From Acidobacteriota bacterium (GTDB lineage Bacteria > Acidobacteriota > UBA6911 > RPQK01 > JAJDTT01): a DNA stretch of 64,000 bases. The stretch is from NCBI GenBank assembly GCA_965263035.1, contig OZ253580.1, positions 1,824,001 through 1,888,000 of the forward strand, in the 5' to 3' direction. A model generated the notes under the pieces. That model was given only the letters and a program-made list of their open reading frames with translations, was not told the origin of the DNA and did no database searches. Below are positions 30,855 to 61,882 of the stretch, in pieces. The position numbers and the translations under genes are program-made. The stretch's first letter is position 1. Every line of letters starts with the position of its first letter.

Positions 30855-32711
30855 ATGCTCTGGCTTCCCTTCGCTCTGCTCGCGCTCCTGACCCCTCCCC
30901 AGGAGAAAGAACCGCCCACCGAGGAGACGCCGAAGGGTTCTCACGAGACCGTCGTCGTCACGGCCAGCCGCCAGGAGCAGCCTCTTCTCGAGAGCACGTC
31001 ACTGGTCACCGTCCTGTCCCGGGACGACCTCCGCCGGTCTCCGGCCCTGGTCCTGGACGACGCGTTGCGCCAGATCCCCGGGTTCAGCCTCTTTCGACGC
31101 AGCAGCAGCATGATCTCCCATCCCACCACTCAGGGCGTTTCTCTACGGGGCATCGGGCCCTCCGGAACCAGCCGCACGCTGGTCCTGTTCGACGGCATTC
31201 CCTGGAACGATCCCTTCGGCGGCTGGGTCTACTGGAACCGGATCCCCCGCATGGCTCTGGAGAGCGTGGAGGTGGTCCGGGGCGCCACCAGTCCTCTGTA
31301 CGGGAGCACCGCGCTGGGGGGAACCATTCAGCTCCGTCCGAGCCGCAACCAGCGCCGGCTGGAGGTCCGGGGCGTGTTGGGGGATCACAAGTACGCCGAC
31401 CTGGATCTGGCCGCCTCGGACAGAATCGGAAACTGGGGATATCTGGCCGCCGCACGGGTACTGGACACCGACGGCTACTTCATCATCGACGAGGCGCTCC
31501 GGGGAGAGGTGGACACGCCGGCCAACAGCCGGTTCGAGACCTTCTTCGGCCGGGTTTCCTACAAGGGATTCCATGTCGGCGTCAACACGTTTCGGGAACG
31601 GCGCAGCAACGGGACGCAACTCCAACAGAACGACTCCCGGATCGCTCTCCTGGAGACGGGCCTCGAGGGCGATTCCTGGCAGGGACGCTTCTACGTCCAG
31701 TCCGGGCTTTTCAAAAACACCTTCTCCCGGGTCCTGAGTGGCCGTTCCCGGGAATTCGTGACTGCCCGGCAGGAATTCCCCACGCTGGGAACGGGAGGGT
31801 CGCTGACCTGGAATCCGCGGGGGCAACTGTTGCTGGGCACCGATTGGAGACGAGTCACCTGGCAGGACCGGGTGCAGAATCTGGCCGGACTGTTCGTCCA
31901 ACAGACCCTGCCCCTCCACACCCGGCTGGATTTGCAGCTCGGAGCCCGGACGGACTGGTGGCAGGGCCGCACCACCGAAACCTCGCTGAATCCCCGCCTG
32001 GGTATCCTGTTTCGGGGCGCCCCCTGGCTGACCCTGCGCAGCTCGGCCTACCGTGGATTTCGGGCCCCGACGCTGAACGAGCTCTATCGCCCCTTCCGGG
32101 TGGGCAACGTCATCACCGCCGAGAACCCCGATCTGGGCGAGGAACACTTGTGGGGAGGAGAGTTGGGAGCCGACCTCCATCCGTCCAGCAACGTGCTGTT
32201 CCGGATCAACGGTTTCTGGAACTCGCTTCGGGATCCGGTGGGAAACGCCACCGTCTCCGTCGGTCCCCAGTTCATCCAACGCCAGCGGCGGAATCTGGGA
32301 CAGGTCTGGGTCCGGGGCCTGGAGTTGGAGACGGGCCTGCAGGGCGACATCCCGTGGAGCCTGAGGATGGGCTACCTCTACTCCCAGACCGAAGTGGGTG
32401 AGACCGGCCTGTGGCTGCCCCAGGTCCCCCGCCATCAGTTCACGGCGGAGATCCGTTACGACGGGCCGTTCAACGCGTCTCTTCAGGGAAGATGGGGCGG
32501 GGATCAGTTCGAGGACGATCGCAACACCATGATCCTGGAGCGCTTCTTTCTCCTGGGCGCCAGCGTCCGAAAACCGTTGGGCGAATCGCTGGAGATCTTT
32601 CTGGCGATCGAGAATCTCCTGGACCAGGACTACGTGGTTCGGCTGACGCCGTTGCCCTCACTGGGCACCCCCCGCCTGATCTATGCCGGCATTCAACTCC
32701 GGCTGAGGTAG
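30855..32711 (+). CDS. TonB-dependent receptor
   Basis: TonB box ETVVVTASR; plug motif VEVVRGATSPLYGSTALGGTI; RAPTLNELY; ENLLD. Confidence 0.9.
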   Translation: MLWLPFALLALLTPPQEKEPPTEETPKGSHETVVVTASRQEQPLLESTSLVTVLSRDDLRRSPALVLDDALRQIPGFSLFRRSSSMISHPTTQGVSLRGIGPSGTSRTLVLFDGIPWNDPFGGWVYWNRIPRMALESVEVVRGATSPLYGSTALGGTIQLRPSRNQRRLEVRGVLGDHKYADLDLAASDRIGNWGYLAAARVLDTDGYFIIDEALRGEVDTPANSRFETFFGRVSYKGFHVGVNTFRERRSNGTQLQQNDSRIALLETGLEGDSWQGRFYVQSGLFKNTFSRVLSGRSREFVTARQEFPTLGTGGSLTWNPRGQLLLGTDWRRVTWQDRVQNLAGLFVQQTLPLHTRLDLQLGARTDWWQGRTTETSLNPRLGILFRGAPWLTLRSSAYRGFRAPTLNELYRPFRVGNVITAENPDLGEEHLWGGELGADLHPSSNVLFRINGFWNSLRDPVGNATVSVGPQFIQRQRRNLGQVWVRGLELETGLQGDIPWSLRMGYLYSQTEVGETGLWLPQVPRHQFTAEIRYDGPFNASLQGRWGGDQFEDDRNTMILERFFLLGASVRKPLGESLEIFLAIENLLDQDYVVRLTPLPSLGTPRLIYAGIQLRLR

Positions 32712-32740
32712 CGGATCGCCCCTGATCCGGTAAGGTGCAC

Positions 32741-32898
32741 CAGGAAGGGCGACTTTCTTGTCGCCCGCTGGGAGAGGAGATTTTCTTGTCGCCGACTCTT
32801 CACGGAGGGTTGTTGCTGTGCGATTCGGCGGCCGGAAAGTGTAGAGTGGGGACTCCGTCCCCCCTACCCCCCTAATCGGCGGCAAGAAAACCGCCGCT
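32741..32898. repeat. Cluster of family-A REP-like palindromes
   Basis: GGGCGACTTTCTTGTCGCCC (32747), GGAGAGGAGATTTTCTTGTCGCCG (32771), CGGCGGCAAGAAAACCGCCGCT (32877). Confidence 0.75.
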
Positions 32899-32914
32899 TG
32901 TCTGTTTAAATGGG

Positions 32915-33072
32915 GCCGTCCGGGTCGCTCATGAGCGACCCGGACGGCGGTGGCTGGACCGTACCGCCGCGGACTGTTACGAACCGTATGGGAGTGAGGT
33001 CGGCCACCGTCTTTCCCGATGTCCTGAATGGATACGAGGGCATCAAGGCCCGAATGACAAGCACAGGAGACA
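32915..33072 (+). ncRNA. Predicted IS110 bridge RNA (boundaries approximate)
   Basis: 5' perfect 34-bp palindrome (32915-32948); target loop ACCGCCGC (32963) and ATGGGAG (32988); donor loop ATGGATAC (33028) and GACAAG (33056). Confidence 0.8.
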
Positions 33073-33078
33073 GGAAAG

Positions 33079-34026
33079 ATGAAACAGCATACCGTAGGCA
33101 TCGACATCTCGAAAGCGCACCTGGACGCGCACCGGCTGGCCGACGGCCATTCCGCCCAGTTCGACAATGACCCGGCCGGCTTCCGGGCGCTGATTGATTG
33201 GATCGGAACTCCGGTCGAGTGCATCGCGTACGAGGCCACCGGTCCCTACCACCGGGACCTCGAGGAAGCGCTGTCCAAAGCGAAGCTGCCGCTGGCGAAG
33301 GTGAACCCCTGGCAGGCGCGGCGCTTCGCCGAGGCGACCGGGAGCCGCGCCAAGACCGACGCCGTAGACGCTCGGAAACTGGCCCAGCTGGCCGCCACGC
33401 TGGAGCCGCGCCGGACCCAGGTGCCGTCCAAAACGCAACGCCGGCTCCAGGATCTGCAGACGTCCCGGGACGCGCTGATGCGCCAGCGCACGGCCGCGCT
33501 CAACCGCCGCCGACAGCTCCGCGAACCCCTGCTCAAACAGCAGAACCAGATCCAGATCAACATGTTCGAGCGCCACCTGCGCGCCATCGACCGCAAATTG
33601 CAGACGCTGATTGCGGCCGACGAGGCGCGGGCCCGCAAGTTGGAGATCCTCACCTCCATCCCGGGGATCGCGGCCACCACCGCCGCCGGTCTGCTGGCCG
33701 AGATGCCCGAGCTGGGCGCCCTCAGCGGCAAGGCCGCCGCCAGTCTGGCCGGGCTGGCCGCCGTTCCGCGCGAGTCGGGGGCTTGGCAGGGCCGGGCCTT
33801 CATCCGGGGCGGACGGGCGCGGGCGCGACGGCTCCTGTACATGCCGGCGGTGGCCGCCCTGCGCTGGAACCCCGACTTGGCCGAGGTGTACCGGAGGCTG
33901 AGCGAGCGCGGCAAGCCCGGCAAGGTGGCCCTCGTCGCCGTCATGCGCAAGCTTATCGTCCTGGCCAACACCCTCGTCCGGCAGGACCGCACCTGGTTGC
34001 CCGTAGCGCCCCGAGCGACCTTCTGA
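33079..34026 (+). CDS. IS110 family recombinase/transposase
   Basis: DEDD residues (GIDISK, YEATG, KTDAVDA), SIPGI, catalytic-Ser motif RESG, LYMPA. Confidence 0.95.
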   Translation: MKQHTVGIDISKAHLDAHRLADGHSAQFDNDPAGFRALIDWIGTPVECIAYEATGPYHRDLEEALSKAKLPLAKVNPWQARRFAEATGSRAKTDAVDARKLAQLAATLEPRRTQVPSKTQRRLQDLQTSRDALMRQRTAALNRRRQLREPLLKQQNQIQINMFERHLRAIDRKLQTLIAADEARARKLEILTSIPGIAATTAAGLLAEMPELGALSGKAAASLAGLAAVPRESGAWQGRAFIRGGRARARRLLYMPAVAALRWNPDLAEVYRRLSERGKPGKVALVAVMRKLIVLANTLVRQDRTWLPVAPRATF

Positions 34027-34456
34027 GGCCACGGAGAGACCCCGTGAGGAAAGGGAGCGTGTGGACCCCCTGATGGCCGTCTGTCGAACTTCCGGTCAAG
34101 TCTGGCCGGAAGCTTGCTTACGGCCATGAAAGCTCTTCACGCCCTGGGGAGCGCCGGGTCACCCGAAGGGCCGCAGCGAAGCGGAGGAGCCGGAGGCTTG
34201 ACCCGACGCTCCCCAGGGCGTATCCGGACCTCCCGGAGGACTGACGTCGACGATCTCAGGTCCCTCGATCCAGTTATCGGTCCACTCATCGCCCCCTGCA
34301 CGGCGCCCGCTGGATCCAGCTCGATCTCCGCCTCACCTCCGGCGGAAGAACGCTCCTCCTAACCCTGTGCCCTTTGGACCGGACAGATCACGTACTAACG
34401 ACACGGGATGGAAACACCGATTAGCACCCACCACTTGCAACATGGATACTCCCATT

Positions 34457-34504
34457 CGGCGACAAGAAAGTCGCCGCTCCAGTCGCCGCTCCAGTCGCCG
34501 CTCC
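34457..34504. repeat. Family-A REP with a triplicated foot
   Basis: CGGCGACAAGAAAGTCGCCGCTCC followed by two extra AGTCGCCGCTCC; overlaps the ALDH stop codon. Confidence 0.85.
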
Positions 34505-35922
34505 TACCCGTTCAGGTGGACGACCACCATCTTGGACTCGGTCATCTCTTCGACCGCGTAACGGGGGCCTTCCTTGCCCATGCCGCTATCCTTGAGGCCT
34601 CCGTAGGGCATGAGGTCGGCCCTCCATTGGGGGCCCCAGTTGATGTGCAGGTTGCCGCTGTCCACTTCCTGGGCGAATCGCATGGCCCGATCGATGTCCT
34701 GAGTGAAGATAGCCGCCGAGAGGCCGTAGCGAGTGTCGTTGGCCATGGCTATGGCCTGATCGATGTCGTCGAAGCGACTCACGGCCACGGCGGGACCGAA
34801 GAGCTCGTCGCAACTGATCCGCATGGCCGGGTCCACGTCGGCCAGGATGGCCGGTTCCACCAGGGCCCCGTTGCGGGCTCCTCCGGTGAGCAGCCGGGCT
34901 CCGCCGTTCGCCGCTTCCTGAATCCAGTTGGACACGCGGATGGCGTCCGATTCCCGAACCAACGGCCCCATGGTGATCCCTTCCTGGAGCTGATCTCCGA
35001 TGCGAATCCCCTCGACGCCGGTCTTGAGGCGGTCCAGGAACTCGTCGTAGATCCGGTCCGCGGCCAGCACCCGCTGCGCCGAGATGCAGACCTGTCCCGC
35101 GTTGGCGAATCCGGTGGCCACCGTGGCCGCGGCCACCTTGTCCAGATCGGCGTCGTCCATCACCAACAGCGGGGCGTTGGACCCCAGTTCCATGGTGACC
35201 TTTTTCATTCCGGCCACCCTGCAGATATGATCTCCCACTTCGTAGCTGCCGGTGAAGCTGATCTTGCGGACTCGAGGGTCGCCCGAGAGAAAGTCGCCCA
35301 CCTCGCTGCCGGGACCCGTCAGGCAGGCCAGGGCCTGGGGCGGCGTCCCCGCCTCCAGCAGAATCTCCACCAGCTTGAGCGCCGACAGGGGAGTGTCGGT
35401 GGCCGGTTTGACCACTACGGAGTTTCCGGCGGCCAGTGCGGGTCCCACCTTGTGGCAGACCAGATGCAACGGAAAGTTGAACGGGGTGATGGCCACCACC
35501 ACACCGCAGGGAACCCGCAGGGTGAACCCCAGGCGTCCGGCGCAGCCGGGCGCCGCGTCCAGCGGAAGGACCTCACCGGTGATCCTCTTGGCCTCTTCTC
35601 CCGAGAGCCGGATGATCTCGGCGGCTCGTACCGCTTCGATCCGGGCTTCCGCCAGGATCTTCCCCTCTTCGGAACTGATGGTCCGGGCCAGATCCTCCGC
35701 CCGCTCCTCCATGATGTCCGCCGCCTTGGTCAGGATTCGCGACCGGTCGTACGCCGGCAGGTTCCGCATCACGCGGGCCCCCTCGACGGCGCCGGCCAAG
35801 GCTGCATCCACGTCGGCGGGCCGGGCCTTGGGAACGGTGTCCACCACCGAGTCGTCGTAAGGATTCCTGACTTCGATCAGTTGGGGCGTCTCGGTCCACT
35901 CACCTTGTACGAACATTCTCAT
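34504..35922 (-). CDS. Aldehyde dehydrogenase family protein
   Basis: ITPFNFP, SFTGS, MELGSN, AGQVCIS, ELFGP, PYGGLKDSG. Confidence 0.93.
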   Translation of the reverse strand: MRMFVQGEWTETPQLIEVRNPYDDSVVDTVPKARPADVDAALAGAVEGARVMRNLPAYDRSRILTKAADIMEERAEDLARTISSEEGKILAEARIEAVRAAEIIRLSGEEAKRITGEVLPLDAAPGCAGRLGFTLRVPCGVVVAITPFNFPLHLVCHKVGPALAAGNSVVVKPATDTPLSALKLVEILLEAGTPPQALACLTGPGSEVGDFLSGDPRVRKISFTGSYEVGDHICRVAGMKKVTMELGSNAPLLVMDDADLDKVAAATVATGFANAGQVCISAQRVLAADRIYDEFLDRLKTGVEGIRIGDQLQEGITMGPLVRESDAIRVSNWIQEAANGGARLLTGGARNGALVEPAILADVDPAMRISCDELFGPAVAVSRFDDIDQAIAMANDTRYGLSAAIFTQDIDRAMRFAQEVDSGNLHINWGPQWRADLMPYGGLKDSGMGKEGPRYAVEEMTESKMVVVHLNG

Positions 35923-61653: not shown

Positions 61654-61882
61654 CCAGGCGGAAAACGGAATCGAGATCACTCAGGTTGCCAACACCAGGA
61701 AATGGATCTGCCCAGGAGCCTGCGCCGCAGAAATTGATCTACTGCGAAAGTGGTAGAATCGGTCCATATTTCCCCGATTTCTCGGCGAATAGCACAACTA
61801 TGCACCTCAAAATCGAGAAAATCTGGCCTCGATTCCCCACTTTCTCGCTACGATCATTTCTACCGCGCAGACTCCTAGCCCA

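What the first reader, a model, noticed from the sequence alone, without database searches (positions are those of the whole stretch)
32877..34480. IS110 element with a fully readable bridge RNA programmed against a host REP
Seen: the reconstructed empty target is ACCGCCG-CT-CCCAT and the circle junction (donor) is ATGGATA-CT-TGTC. The 5' non-coding end contains, in order, ACCGCCGC (left target), ATGGGAG (reverse complement of CTCCCAT), ATGGATAC (left donor) and GACAAG (reverse complement of CTTGTC). Each pair lies inside a closing stem, after a 34-bp palindrome. Circularisation would also create TTGCAA-N17-TTAAAT, a possible junction promoter. Known: this matches the IS621 bridge-RNA mechanism, and IS621 also targets REPs. 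The mechanism is known, but this appears to be an intact ortholog with its own guide set and a different REP target, and so a candidate programmable recombinase.
Basis: partly seen in the sequence, partly recalled or inferred. Interest (0 to 1): 0.82.

Follow-up and report, generated by a model that had tools for sequence, protein, structure and literature searches.

The report
IS110 insertion sequence with bridge RNA
This is an intact mobile element of the IS110 family that carries its own guide ("bridge") RNA matching both its repeat-sequence target and its own ends, a well-supported new example of a mechanism described in 2024 rather than a new kind of system.

Summary
Window 32899-34450 is a 1552-bp IS110-group element. 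It encodes a 315-aa DEDD/Ser recombinase (Pfam PF01548 and PF02371; PDB ISCro4 1.4e-35, IS621 2.5e-32). Its 180-nt left end holds, in order, ACCGCCGC, ATGGGAG, ATGGATAC and GACAAG. These match the left target, right target, left donor and right donor in the strand pattern described for IS621. Chance does not explain this: all four were present in 0 of 100,000 shuffles.

The genome holds 13 copies with identical ends. Sister genomes have the same locus uninterrupted at ...CCGCCG-CT-CCCGT.... Three copies carry one C-to-A change in the left target guide, and they sit in ACCGACG-CT sites at the end of another IS. Orthologues in other Acidobacteriota, Candidatus Foliamicus and an alphaproteobacterium carry different guides that match their own targets and ends. 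Their alignment supports a 5' stem-loop and two internal-loop stem-loops (13 of 36 pairs compensatory).

The circular form and transcription of the RNA were not shown.

This is a new member of a known kind, of moderate interest. The added value is a natural one-base retargeting event within a single genome.

The parts
32877..32896 (+). REP-like hairpin CGGCGGCAAGAAAACCGCCG. Its 3' arm (32890-32896, ACCGCCG) is the left target (LT).
   Evidence: 6-pair stem. Family census. Orthologous uninterrupted site.
32897..32898 (+). Left copy of the CT core dinucleotide.
   Evidence: CT lies at both junctions in 13 of 13 left ends and in all right ends found. There is a 2-nt overlap of the flank matches in sister genomes G007 and G006.
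32899..34450 (+). The IS110-group element, 1552 bp counted with the right-hand CT.
   Evidence: seven of the 13 copies are 1552 bp; the others are 1474-1555 bp or truncated. Empty orthologous site.
32906..32911 (+). TTAAAT, the -10-like half of the possible junction promoter.
   Evidence: Direct reading. TTGAAT or TGTAAT lies at the same place in Foliamicus orthologues.
32915..32948 (+). [quoted passage not shown]
   Evidence: helix 1: 5 of 12 pairs with compensatory change.
32948..33009 (+). Target-binding stem-loop. Outer stem 32948-32953/33004-33009 and 32957-32960/32998-33001 encloses the internal loop with LTG and RTG.
32963..32970 (+). Left target guide (LTG) ACCGCCGC, identical to LT plus the first core base. 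The ninth base is G, not T.
   Evidence: A C-to-A variant is found in the 3 copies that sit in ACCGACG-CT.
32988..32994 (+). Right target guide (RTG) ATGGGAG, the reverse complement of CT-CCCAT.
32995..32996 (+). TG, at the position of the target-loop handshake guide. U can pair with donor A at the base before the core.
   Evidence: Direct reading against the rule in PMC11208158 (passages).
33012..33077 (+). Donor-binding stem-loop. Outer stems 33012-33017/33073-33077 and 33022-33026/33064-33068; distal stem 33038-33041/33048-33051.
33028..33035 (+). Left donor guide (LDG) ATGGATAC, identical to the right end of the element plus the first core base.
   Evidence: Invariant in all orthologues.
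33056..33061 (+). Right donor guide (RDG) GACAAG, the reverse complement of CT-TGTC.
   Evidence: It covaries with the left end in orthologues: TACAAG with TGTA, GATAAG with TATC.
33062..33063 (+). CA, at the position of the donor-loop handshake guide. C can pair with target G at the base before the core.
   Evidence: Direct reading against PMC11208158.
33079..34026 (+). Recombinase gene, 315 aa. Catalytic residues D9, E52, D94, D97 and S233-G234.
34104..34233 (+). About 130-nt hairpin repeat nested in the 424-nt right end. It also occurs alone elsewhere in the genome and is partly missing in 3 copies.
   Evidence: (chance mir-939 hit on the hairpin).
34435..34440 (+). TTGCAA, the -35-like half of the possible junction promoter.
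   Evidence: Direct reading. TTGACA lies at the same place in Foliamicus orthologues.
34442..34450 (+). Left donor ATGGATA plus the right copy of the CT core.
34451..34455 (+). Right target (RT) CCCAT.
34457..34476 (+). Next REP-like hairpin CGGCGACAAGAAAGTCGCCG. It is part of the target neighbourhood, not of the element.

Best explanation
Window 32899-34450 is an intact, recently active insertion sequence of the IS110 group that moves by bridge-RNA-guided recombination, as described for IS621.

Inferred cycle:
- The element excises as a circle.
- The joined right and left ends bring a -35-like box (TTGCAA) and a -10-like box (TTAAAT) together. Transcription from there gives a bridge RNA of about 160 nt: a 5' stem-loop, a target-binding loop and a donor-binding loop.
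- The 315-aa DEDD/Ser recombinase binds the RNA.
- LTG (ACCGCCGC) and RTG (AUGGGAG) pair with the bottom and top strands of ACCGCCG-CT-CCCAT, at the 3' foot of a REP-like hairpin.
- LDG (AUGGAUAC) and RDG (GACAAG) pair with the circle junction ATGGATA-CT-TGTC.
- Strand exchange at the CT core inserts the element.

Shown here: the ends, the target, the protein family and its catalytic residues, the guide matches, the RNA fold with covariation, and guide-target covariation within the genome and between orthologues.

Inferred only: the circle, the promoter, the RNA as a molecule, and catalysis.
For: 1. Protein. PF01548 8.9e-23 and PF02371 9.4e-19. It aligns over residues 3-299 to ISCro4 (9t56, 1.4e-35) and IS621 (8wt6, 2.5e-32). 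D9, E52, D94, D97 and S233-G234 stand opposite IS621 D11, E60, D102, D105 and S241-G242 (residue roles from PMC11208158).

2. Guides. The four segments are present once each, in order, with 0 of 100,000 shuffles holding all four.

3. Copies. There are 13 copies at 93-100% identity. 13 of 13 left ends read ...CT|TGTCTGTTTAAAT and all 12 complete right ends read ATGGATACT|. Nine have a 315-aa ORF.

4. Empty sites.
- The orthologous locus in sister genomes G007 and G006 is uninterrupted...aagaaaGCCGCCG-CT-CCCGTTcggcgac....
- Paralogous uninterrupted 14-mers occur at 2 places in the genome.

5. Covariation within the genome.
- The 3 copies whose LTG reads ACCGACGC lie in ACCGACG-CT.
- That site is the left end of an IS1182/IS5-like element.
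- Of its uninterrupted copies, 2 carry ACCGACG and 4 carry ACCGAAG (a one-base mismatch). None of the 4 ACCGAAG copies holds the element.
- Copy -78133 has an RTG that predicts CTCCTTT and lies next to CTCCTCT.

6. Covariation across orthologues.
- LTG GTCGCCGCT sits in GTCGCCG-CT.
- GCCCTCGCT sits in GCCCTCG-CT.
- TTCGTGTCT sits in TTCGTGT-CT (26 of 35 alphaproteobacterial sites match 9 of 9).
- RDG TACAAG goes with left end TGTA, and GATAAG with TATC.
- L038: RT CTCCAGAC matches its guide 8 of 8.
- Over 61 sites in 6 guide classes, the cognate mean is 6.61 of 7 against 4.21 for all pairings. 2 of 720 class permutations score as high.

7. Structure. The RNAalifold consensus of 13 left ends gives the three-part architecture. 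On 36 pairs, 97.6% of cells are paired, 13 pairs carry compensatory change, 0 of 500 shuffles reach this, and slid controls give 32-55% paired.

8. Handshake positions. U after the RTG can pair with donor A7, and C after the RDG with target G7, as the rule in PMC11208158 requires.

9. Promoter halves. The -35-like and -10-like boxes keep their places in orthologues (TTGACA-18-TTGAAT or TGTAAT in Foliamicus).
Against: - No circle junction was seen. Among the 15 joints listed when contigs of 4 runs were laid there is none from 34450 back to 32899 (5 further joints were not shown).
- The RNA is not shown as a molecule. Only contigs, not reads, were available.
- The junction promoter matches the consensus at 8 of 12 positions and lacks A at position 2 of the -10 box (criteria).
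- The ninth LTG base is G, so the second core base is not matched by the left guide. Sister lineages have T there.
- The distal stem of the target loop is not supported. RNAalifold gave only 2 pairs there, between guide segments, and I removed them.
- Three copies (subfamily B) carry an RTG variant predicting CTGCTTT, whose flanks read CTCCTGT (5 of 7) and CTCTCGA (2 of 7). Two of these three copies have a 30-aa ORF.
- L040, L045 and L033 match their left target at only 5-6 of 7 non-core positions.
- The right end (424 nt) is longer than the left end (180 nt), unlike the usual IS110-group pattern described in PMC11208160.
- The structure alignment holds 4 sequences from one genome and several close relatives, so independent compensatory events are fewer than the cell counts suggest.
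Confidence: 0.93

Rival explanations
1. The element is a bridge-RNA IS by descent but is now a fossil. The copies are relics of a past burst and no longer move.
For: - No circle junction among the joints listed.
- 4 of 13 copies are damaged: ORFs of 30, 30 and 274 aa, and one copy truncated.
- Solo right-end fragments exist.
- The junction promoter is weak (8 of 12).
Against: - Seven further copies are 97.7-99.8% identical to the window copy.
- 9 have the full 315-aa ORF with all catalytic residues.
- The window insertion is absent from the same locus in sister genomes G007 and G006.
- A derived guide variant has colonised a new target in at least two diverged host-IS copies. The flanks are 87-88% identical while the element copies are about 94-99% identical.
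Confidence: 0.1
2. Target choice is made mainly by the recombinase recognising the REP hairpin or DNA motifs directly. On this view the left-end matches are by-products (for instance protein-binding subterminal repeats), not RNA guides.
For: - All REP targets share a GC-rich hairpin just 5' of the core.
- A preprint reports that a target stem-loop adds specificity for ISPpu10 (abstract only read).
- RT matches are often only CTCC plus 1-3 bases.
Against: - The matches follow the strand pattern of IS621: the left guides are identical to the top strand and the right guides are its reverse complement.
- They lie in internal loops of a fold kept by compensatory changes.
- A one-base guide change tracks a one-base target change onto a site that is not a REP.
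- Four different left guides in four lineages each match their own targets.
Confidence: 0.03
3. Dual recognition. RNA pairing sets the sequence, but a DNA hairpin formed by the target (the REP stem, whose 3' arm is the left target) is also needed, as proposed for ISPpu10.
For: - 10 of 13 copies lie at the 3' foot of a REP hairpin.
- The second target, GTCACCGACG-CT, can form a small CGTC/GACG hairpin (direct reading).
- 91 ACCGCCGCTCC sites exist in the genome, 64 of them in hairpins.
- ISPpu10 abstract.
Against: - Nothing here separates sequence from structure, because the hairpin arm is itself the guide-matched sequence.
- Copy -5836382 and the alphaproteobacterial targets were not examined for hairpins.
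Confidence: 0.25

Closest known systems
IS621 of Escherichia coli (IS110 group; bridge recombinase; PDB 8wt6)
   Same: - DEDD RuvC-like domain plus Tnp domain with catalytic Ser-Gly.
- CT core.
- Bridge RNA in the left end with a 5' stem-loop, a target loop and a donor loop.
- Left guides identical to the top strand and right guides complementary to it.
- Handshake positions.
- REP target.
- Promoter split across the junction.
(Passages of PMC11208160 and PMC11208158 read.)
   Different: - Different guides and target (ACCGCCG-CT-CCCAT).
- The ninth LTG base does not match the second core base.
- The RTG is contiguous over 7 bases.
- The right end is 424 nt, longer than the left end.
- The host is an Acidobacteriota genome, by its closest named relatives.
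- Only remote protein similarity (2.5e-32).
ISCro4 transposase (PDB 9t56)
   Same: Best solved-structure relative by sequence: 1.4e-35 over residues 3-299, with the same catalytic motifs in the alignment.
   Different: A distant orthologue. Nothing about its RNA or target was compared here.
ISPpu10 / ISPpu9 of Pseudomonas putida (IS110 family, REP-associated)
   Same: Insertion next to a GC-rich stem-loop of a repeated intergenic sequence (abstracts only).
   Different: No sequence comparison was made. ISPpu9 is described with a small RNA gene downstream of the transposase. Here the guides are upstream.
IS1111 group (bridge/seek RNA in the right end, long subterminal inverted repeats)
   Same: Same recombinase family. 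A long right end is also seen here.
   Different: All four guide segments lie in the left end. The long right end is explained at least in part by a nested hairpin repeat. No long subterminal inverted repeats were noted in the ends read.

Membership tests
IS110 family, IS110 group (IS621-like bridge recombinase elements) | Recombinase with an N-terminal DEDD RuvC-like domain and a C-terminal Tnp domain carrying the catalytic serine. | tested here: met
   PF01548 and PF02371 score above their cut-offs. D9, E52, D94, D97 and S233-G234 align to IS621 D11, E60, D102, D105 and S241-G242 (roles from PMC11208158).
IS110 family, IS110 group (IS621-like bridge recombinase elements) | Site-specific insertion with a 2-nt core present at both junctions, and no long target duplication. 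| tested here: met
   CT lies at both junctions of all copies. The orthologous empty site has a single CT.
IS110 family, IS110 group (IS621-like bridge recombinase elements) | [quoted passage not shown] | tested here: met
   RNAalifold consensus. 97.6% of cells paired, 13 of 36 pairs compensatory, 0 of 500 shuffles as high. The distal stem of the target loop is not supported. No Rfam family matched at E up to 1 apart from a chance miRNA hit.
IS110 family, IS110 group (IS621-like bridge recombinase elements) | The first loop pairs with both strands of the target. The second loop pairs with both strands of the donor (the joined ends). | tested here: met
   Includes covariation within the genome and across four lineages.
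IS110 family, IS110 group (IS621-like bridge recombinase elements) | The handshake guide after RTG and RDG pairs with the non-cognate DNA at the base before the core. | tested here: met
   U (32995) with donor A. C (33062) with target G. The second handshake bases do not form Watson-Crick pairs. Direct reading.
IS110 family, IS110 group (IS621-like bridge recombinase elements) | Circular intermediate whose junction rebuilds a promoter for the RNA. | tested here: inconclusive
   The boxes TTGCAA-17-TTAAAT would form and are conserved in place, but match only 8 of 12 consensus positions. No circle joint was listed in contigs of 4 runs.
IS110 family, IS110 group (IS621-like bridge recombinase elements) | The RNA is expressed and bound by the recombinase, and recombination depends on it. 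| not testable with these tools
   Only contigs of public runs were available.
IS110 family, IS110 group (IS621-like bridge recombinase elements) | Typical rather than defining: the left end is longer than the right end. | tested here: not met
   Left end 180 nt, right end 424 nt. Orthologues of 1177-1279 bp have short right ends. The excess here includes a nested hairpin repeat.
IS1111 group | Guide RNA in the right end, with subterminal inverted repeats of 7-17 bp. | tested here: not met
   The guides lie in the left end. Group description from PMC11208160.

The most novel reading that the evidence does not exclude
Within this one genome the element has been caught re-aiming itself. A single C-to-A change in the left target guide moved a sub-lineage from REP hairpins to a fixed site at the left end of an unrelated IS1182/IS5-like element, just upstream of that element's transposase gene. 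Copies of the new target that differ by one base have stayed empty. If so, bridge-RNA elements can change niche by single point mutations in nature and can become site-specific parasites of other transposons.
Probability: 0.6. Interest if true: 0.45.

Novelty: new member of a known kind. Interest (0 to 1): 0.35.

Why it matters
The element adds a fully readable, apparently intact bridge recombinase with its RNA from a GC-rich Acidobacteriota genome. Its own guide set comes with a family of natural guide variants (ACCGCCG, ACCGACG, GTCGCCG, GCCCTCG, TTCGTGT) that share one donor design. That set is a ready-made series for testing how far guide changes alone set specificity, and it is a candidate orthologue for recombinase engineering.

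The one-base retargeting onto another IS is a clean natural illustration of programmability. It does not change the known mechanism. PMC11208160 (passages) already reports predicted bridge RNAs in 85.7% of IS110-group elements, and covariation over thousands of them.

Tried and rejected
- Rfam scan of 32000-35500: no bridge-RNA family. The only hit, mir-939 (E 0.17, below its gathering score), lies on the hairpin repeat in the right end and is taken as chance.
- Single-sequence MFE fold: z = -5.35, but it pairs guide segments with each other. I replaced it with the consensus fold.
- The two RNAalifold pairs between LTG and RTG (columns 134-135/158-159) were dropped before counting.
- Promoter scan of the integrated element: 0 sites.
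- Public runs: all 24 are kept as contigs, and 4 were laid.
  - A joint 32896 to 34449 (skips 1552, with 2 letters fitting both sides) appears in 4 of 4 runs. This is the empty-site form. Its sides are only 21-37 letters and the REP is repeated, so it may come from paralogous sites or other strains. I do not count it as evidence of excision.
  - 'Going back' joints 34480 to 32874/32876 with 1-3 extra letters look like REP-REP neighbours, not circles.
  - In RNA run X17 the summed word depth is 1082 and 854 over 32898-33029 against 14.5-28.5 over 33030-34151. RNA run X18 shows no such excess (9-11 against 4-28). The tool states that contig depth cannot rank parts of a gene, so this is a lead only.
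- RTG A-to-T as a retargeting change: rejected, because L032 and L034 in a sister genome share it while sitting in ACCGCCG REPs.
- Loci dropped from the guide tables because no left end or anchor was found: L037, L038, L039, L067, L075, L077, L078, L079, L084, L086, L089. L090 was not analysed.
- Supplementary files of the papers were not seen. Supplementary tables of PMC11208160 may already list this or a near-identical orthologue.
- Literature search for IS110 with Acidobacteriota: none of the 10 listed papers holds the word Acidobacteriota.
Full report
**What is there**

- The left flank ends ...CGGCGGCAAGAAAACCGCCG-CT (CT = 32897-32898). The element then starts TGTCTGTTTAAAT at 32899.
- The element ends ...CTTGCAACATGGATA-CT (CT = 34449-34450) and is followed by CCCATTCGGCGAC....
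- One long ORF lies inside, 33079-34026 on the + strand, 315 aa.
- This leaves a 180-nt non-coding left end and a 424-nt right end.
- The four proposed guide segments each occur once in the left end, in the stated order: ACCGCCGC 32963, ATGGGAG 32988, ATGGATAC 33028, GACAAG 33056.
- The 34-nt palindrome is 32915-32948.

**Is it more than chance?**

In 100,000 dinucleotide-preserving shuffles of the left end, the four segments appeared in 545, 2684, 271 and 5496 shuffles. All four appeared together in none. Only 17 of 200,000 random CT sites of the same genome had both target segments in order in the left end.

**The protein**

Pfam gives DEDD_Tnp_IS110 (8.9e-23) and Transposase_20 (9.4e-19). 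Against solved structures the best relatives are the ISCro4 transposase (9t56, 1.4e-35) and the IS621 transposase (8wt6, 2.5e-32), aligned over residues 3-299. Counting along that alignment, D9, E52, D94, D97 and S233-G234 stand opposite IS621 D11, E60, D102, D105 and S241-G242. PMC11208158 describes these as the composite active site (passages read).

**Copies, ends and empty sites**

The window lies in a single 6.2-Mb contig.
- The genome holds 13 copies with a left end, and 15 matches to the right-end anchor. These are the 12 complete right ends, one right-end remnant and two diverged fragments.
- Every left end reads CT|TGTCTGTTTAAAT and every complete right end reads ATGGATACT|.
- Nine copies keep a 315-aa ORF. 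One has 314 aa, one 274, and two have 30 (one of these two is also truncated at its 3' side).
- The same chromosomal locus in two genomes of the same genus (G007, G006) is uninterrupted. It reads ...aagaaaGCCGCCG-CT-CCCGTTcggcgacaagaaagtcgccgct..., and the two flank matches overlap by exactly the two core bases.

This fixes the boundaries and shows that the window copy is an insertion younger than the split of these genomes.

**The target**

The target is the 3' foot of a REP-like hairpin, CGGCG-NN-loop-NN-CGCCG. A loose pattern finds 889 hairpins, of which 190 are followed by CTCC. Among those, 64 read ACCGCCG-CT-CC, 53 GCCGCCG and 50 GTCGCCG.
- Nine copies lie in ACCGCCG-CT.
- One lies in GCCGCCG-CT.
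- Three lie in ACCGACG-CT.

**Guide-target covariation inside the genome**

Aligning the 13 left ends shows that exactly the three copies in ACCGACG-CT have C-to-A at the matching place of the left target guide (ACCGACGC).

Their target is not a REP. It is the left end of another repeated element whose ORF carries DDE_Tnp_1_6, DUF772 and DDE_Tnp_1 domains, so it is IS1182/IS5-like. That element has about ten copies:
- Three hold the IS110 element and one holds a right-end remnant.
- Two uninterrupted copies carry ACCGACG-CT.
- Four uninterrupted copies carry ACCGAAG-CT, one mismatch to the guide, and none of these four is occupied.

The flanks of the occupied copies are 87-88% identical in two of the three comparisons, while the IS110 copies are 94-99% identical (the 94% values include a 78-nt length difference). 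So at least two insertions into this site look independent.

The A-to-T change in the right target guide of these copies is shared with L032 and L034 of a sister genome, which sit in ACCGCCG REPs. Only the LTG change is therefore specific to the retargeted lineage.

Right-target matches are looser. Counting core plus five bases, copies match their own guide at 7, 7, 6, 6, 6, 6, 6, 6, 5, 5, 5 and 2 of 7. The poor ones belong to a sub-lineage (B) whose guide predicts CTGCTTT and two of whose three copies have broken ORFs. I cannot say whether that guide mutated after insertion or whether these copies were moved in trans.

**Orthologues**

A scan of one genome per species found 60 related loci:
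- Acidobacteriota MAGs (84-94% protein identity);
- Candidatus Foliamicus MAGs (64-69%);
- one alphaproteobacterial MAG with many copies (36-43%).

Their left ends carry different guides that fit their own flanks.
- GTCGCCGCT sits in GTCGCCG-CT (L031, L035, L036).
- GCCCTCGCT sits in GCCCTCG-CT (L041-L044, L046).
- TTCGTGTCT sits in TTCGTGT-CT (26 of 35 sites match 9 of 9; the others match 6-8).
- The right donor guide changes with the left end: TACAAG with TGTA, GATAAG with TATC.
- L038 matches its right target at 8 of 8.
- Less good: L040 and L045 (7 of 9) and L033 (8 of 9).

Over 61 sites in six guide classes, the cognate mean is 6.61 of 7 non-core bases against 4.21 for all pairings. Two of 720 permutations of the class labels score as high. 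Eleven loci without a recognisable left end or anchor were left out.

**RNA structure**

The consensus fold of 13 left ends (4 from this genome, 9 orthologues; alignment A1) gives three parts (window coordinates):
- a 5' stem-loop (32916-32947);
- a stem closing a large internal loop that holds LTG and RTG (32948-33009);
- a second stem-loop (33012-33077) whose internal loop holds LDG and RDG around a short distal stem.

After I removed two doubtful pairs between guide segments, 36 pairs remain. 97.6% of cells are paired, 13 pairs carry changes on both sides, and no shuffle of 500 reaches these values. Sliding the partners by 1-3 columns gives 32-55% paired.

The sequences are related, and most double changes come from the Foliamicus and alphaproteobacterial rows, so the number of independent events is smaller than the cell count. 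The distal stem of the target loop is not supported.

This architecture is the one PMC11208160 describes for 103 orthologues of IS621 (passages). [quoted passage not shown]

The bases right after RTG (U) and RDG (C) can pair with the donor A and the target G that precede the core. These are the handshake positions of PMC11208158.

**Promoter and expression**

Joining the ends would place TTGCAA 17 nt before TTAAAT. This is only 8 of 12 consensus positions, and the integrated element has no promoter-like site by the scan tool.

The two boxes keep their places in orthologues, with TTGACA-18-TTGAAT and TTGACA-18-TGTAAT in Foliamicus. PMC11208160 reports such a junction promoter for IS621.

Public runs were available only as contigs. 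Laying four of them showed an empty-site form with short sides in all four, and no listed circle joint. One of two RNA libraries had a much higher summed depth over 32898-33029 than over the gene. By the tool's own warnings none of this is evidence for or against excision or expression.

**Comparison with what is known**

The element works like IS621 and meets the family's testable defining features (see Membership tests).

It differs in these ways:
- its guide set and target;
- a left target guide whose ninth base does not match the second core base (sister lineages have T there);
- a right end longer than the left end, which is unusual for the IS110 group (PMC11208160). This is partly explained by a roughly 130-nt hairpin repeat nested at 34104-34233, which also occurs alone in the genome.

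REP targeting is known for IS621 (the title of Choi et al. 2003 in the reference list) and for ISPpu9 and ISPpu10 (abstracts).

**Verdict**

This is a new member of a known kind. The mechanism, its generality across the family and large-scale guide-target covariation are already published. The added value is a clean natural series of guide variants and a one-base retargeting onto another insertion sequence inside one genome.

Interest is 0.35. Confidence that this is a functional or recently functional bridge-RNA-guided IS110 element is 0.93.

Noticed in passing
window 61715-61878 (and more than 150 other places in the genome, e.g. G000:C1:1125671-1125837): A repeat of about 165 nt occurs more than 150 times in the genome, mostly at 92-98% identity. 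It looks MITE-like. One copy lies in the window, and one lies just left of a subfamily-A IS110 copy.
   Followed up: no
G000:C1:1127346-1128848 (L017:1745-3247), with about 10 copies genome-wide: An IS1182/IS5-like element (ORF with DUF772, DDE_Tnp_1_6 and DDE_Tnp_1). Its left end, about 38 nt before the transposase start codon, is the insertion site of the retargeted IS110 sub-lineage.
   Followed up: partly
window 34104-34233: A hairpin repeat of about 130 nt sits inside the right end of the IS. Solo copies lie at G000:C1:1959693-1959822, 2981629-2981758 and other places. Its centre is missing in the three 1474-1477-bp IS copies. DNA-type runs show a sharp depth peak at 34152-34217.
   Followed up: partly
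window 34465-34503: The 12-nt unit CCAGTCGCCGCT (the REP 3' arm plus CT-CCAG) stands in tandem right of the insertion. Sister genomes have a single, diverged version. One RNA-library contig lacks 12 nt at 34469.
   Followed up: no
window 32740-32800: Upstream of the target lie further REP-like units in the opposite orientation (gggcgactttcttgtcgccc, attttcttgtcgccg). A conserved motif gtagagtggggactccgtcccccctacccccc precedes REPs at several insertion sites in this genome and in sister genomes.
   Followed up: no
G000:C1:4205111-4205526 and 5347234-5347311: Solo or diverged right-end fragments of the IS, or of a relative of it. One is an inverted pair around 4205342-4205452 next to an IS1182-like copy.
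   Followed up: no
L047-L088 (alphaproteobacterial MAG): A single MAG holds at least 35 copies of a 36-43% identical orthologue, all next to a hairpin of the type ggtcataaaaagtgaccttttcatgacc followed by (T)TTCGTGT-CT. Its left end is 238 nt instead of 180.
   Followed up: partly
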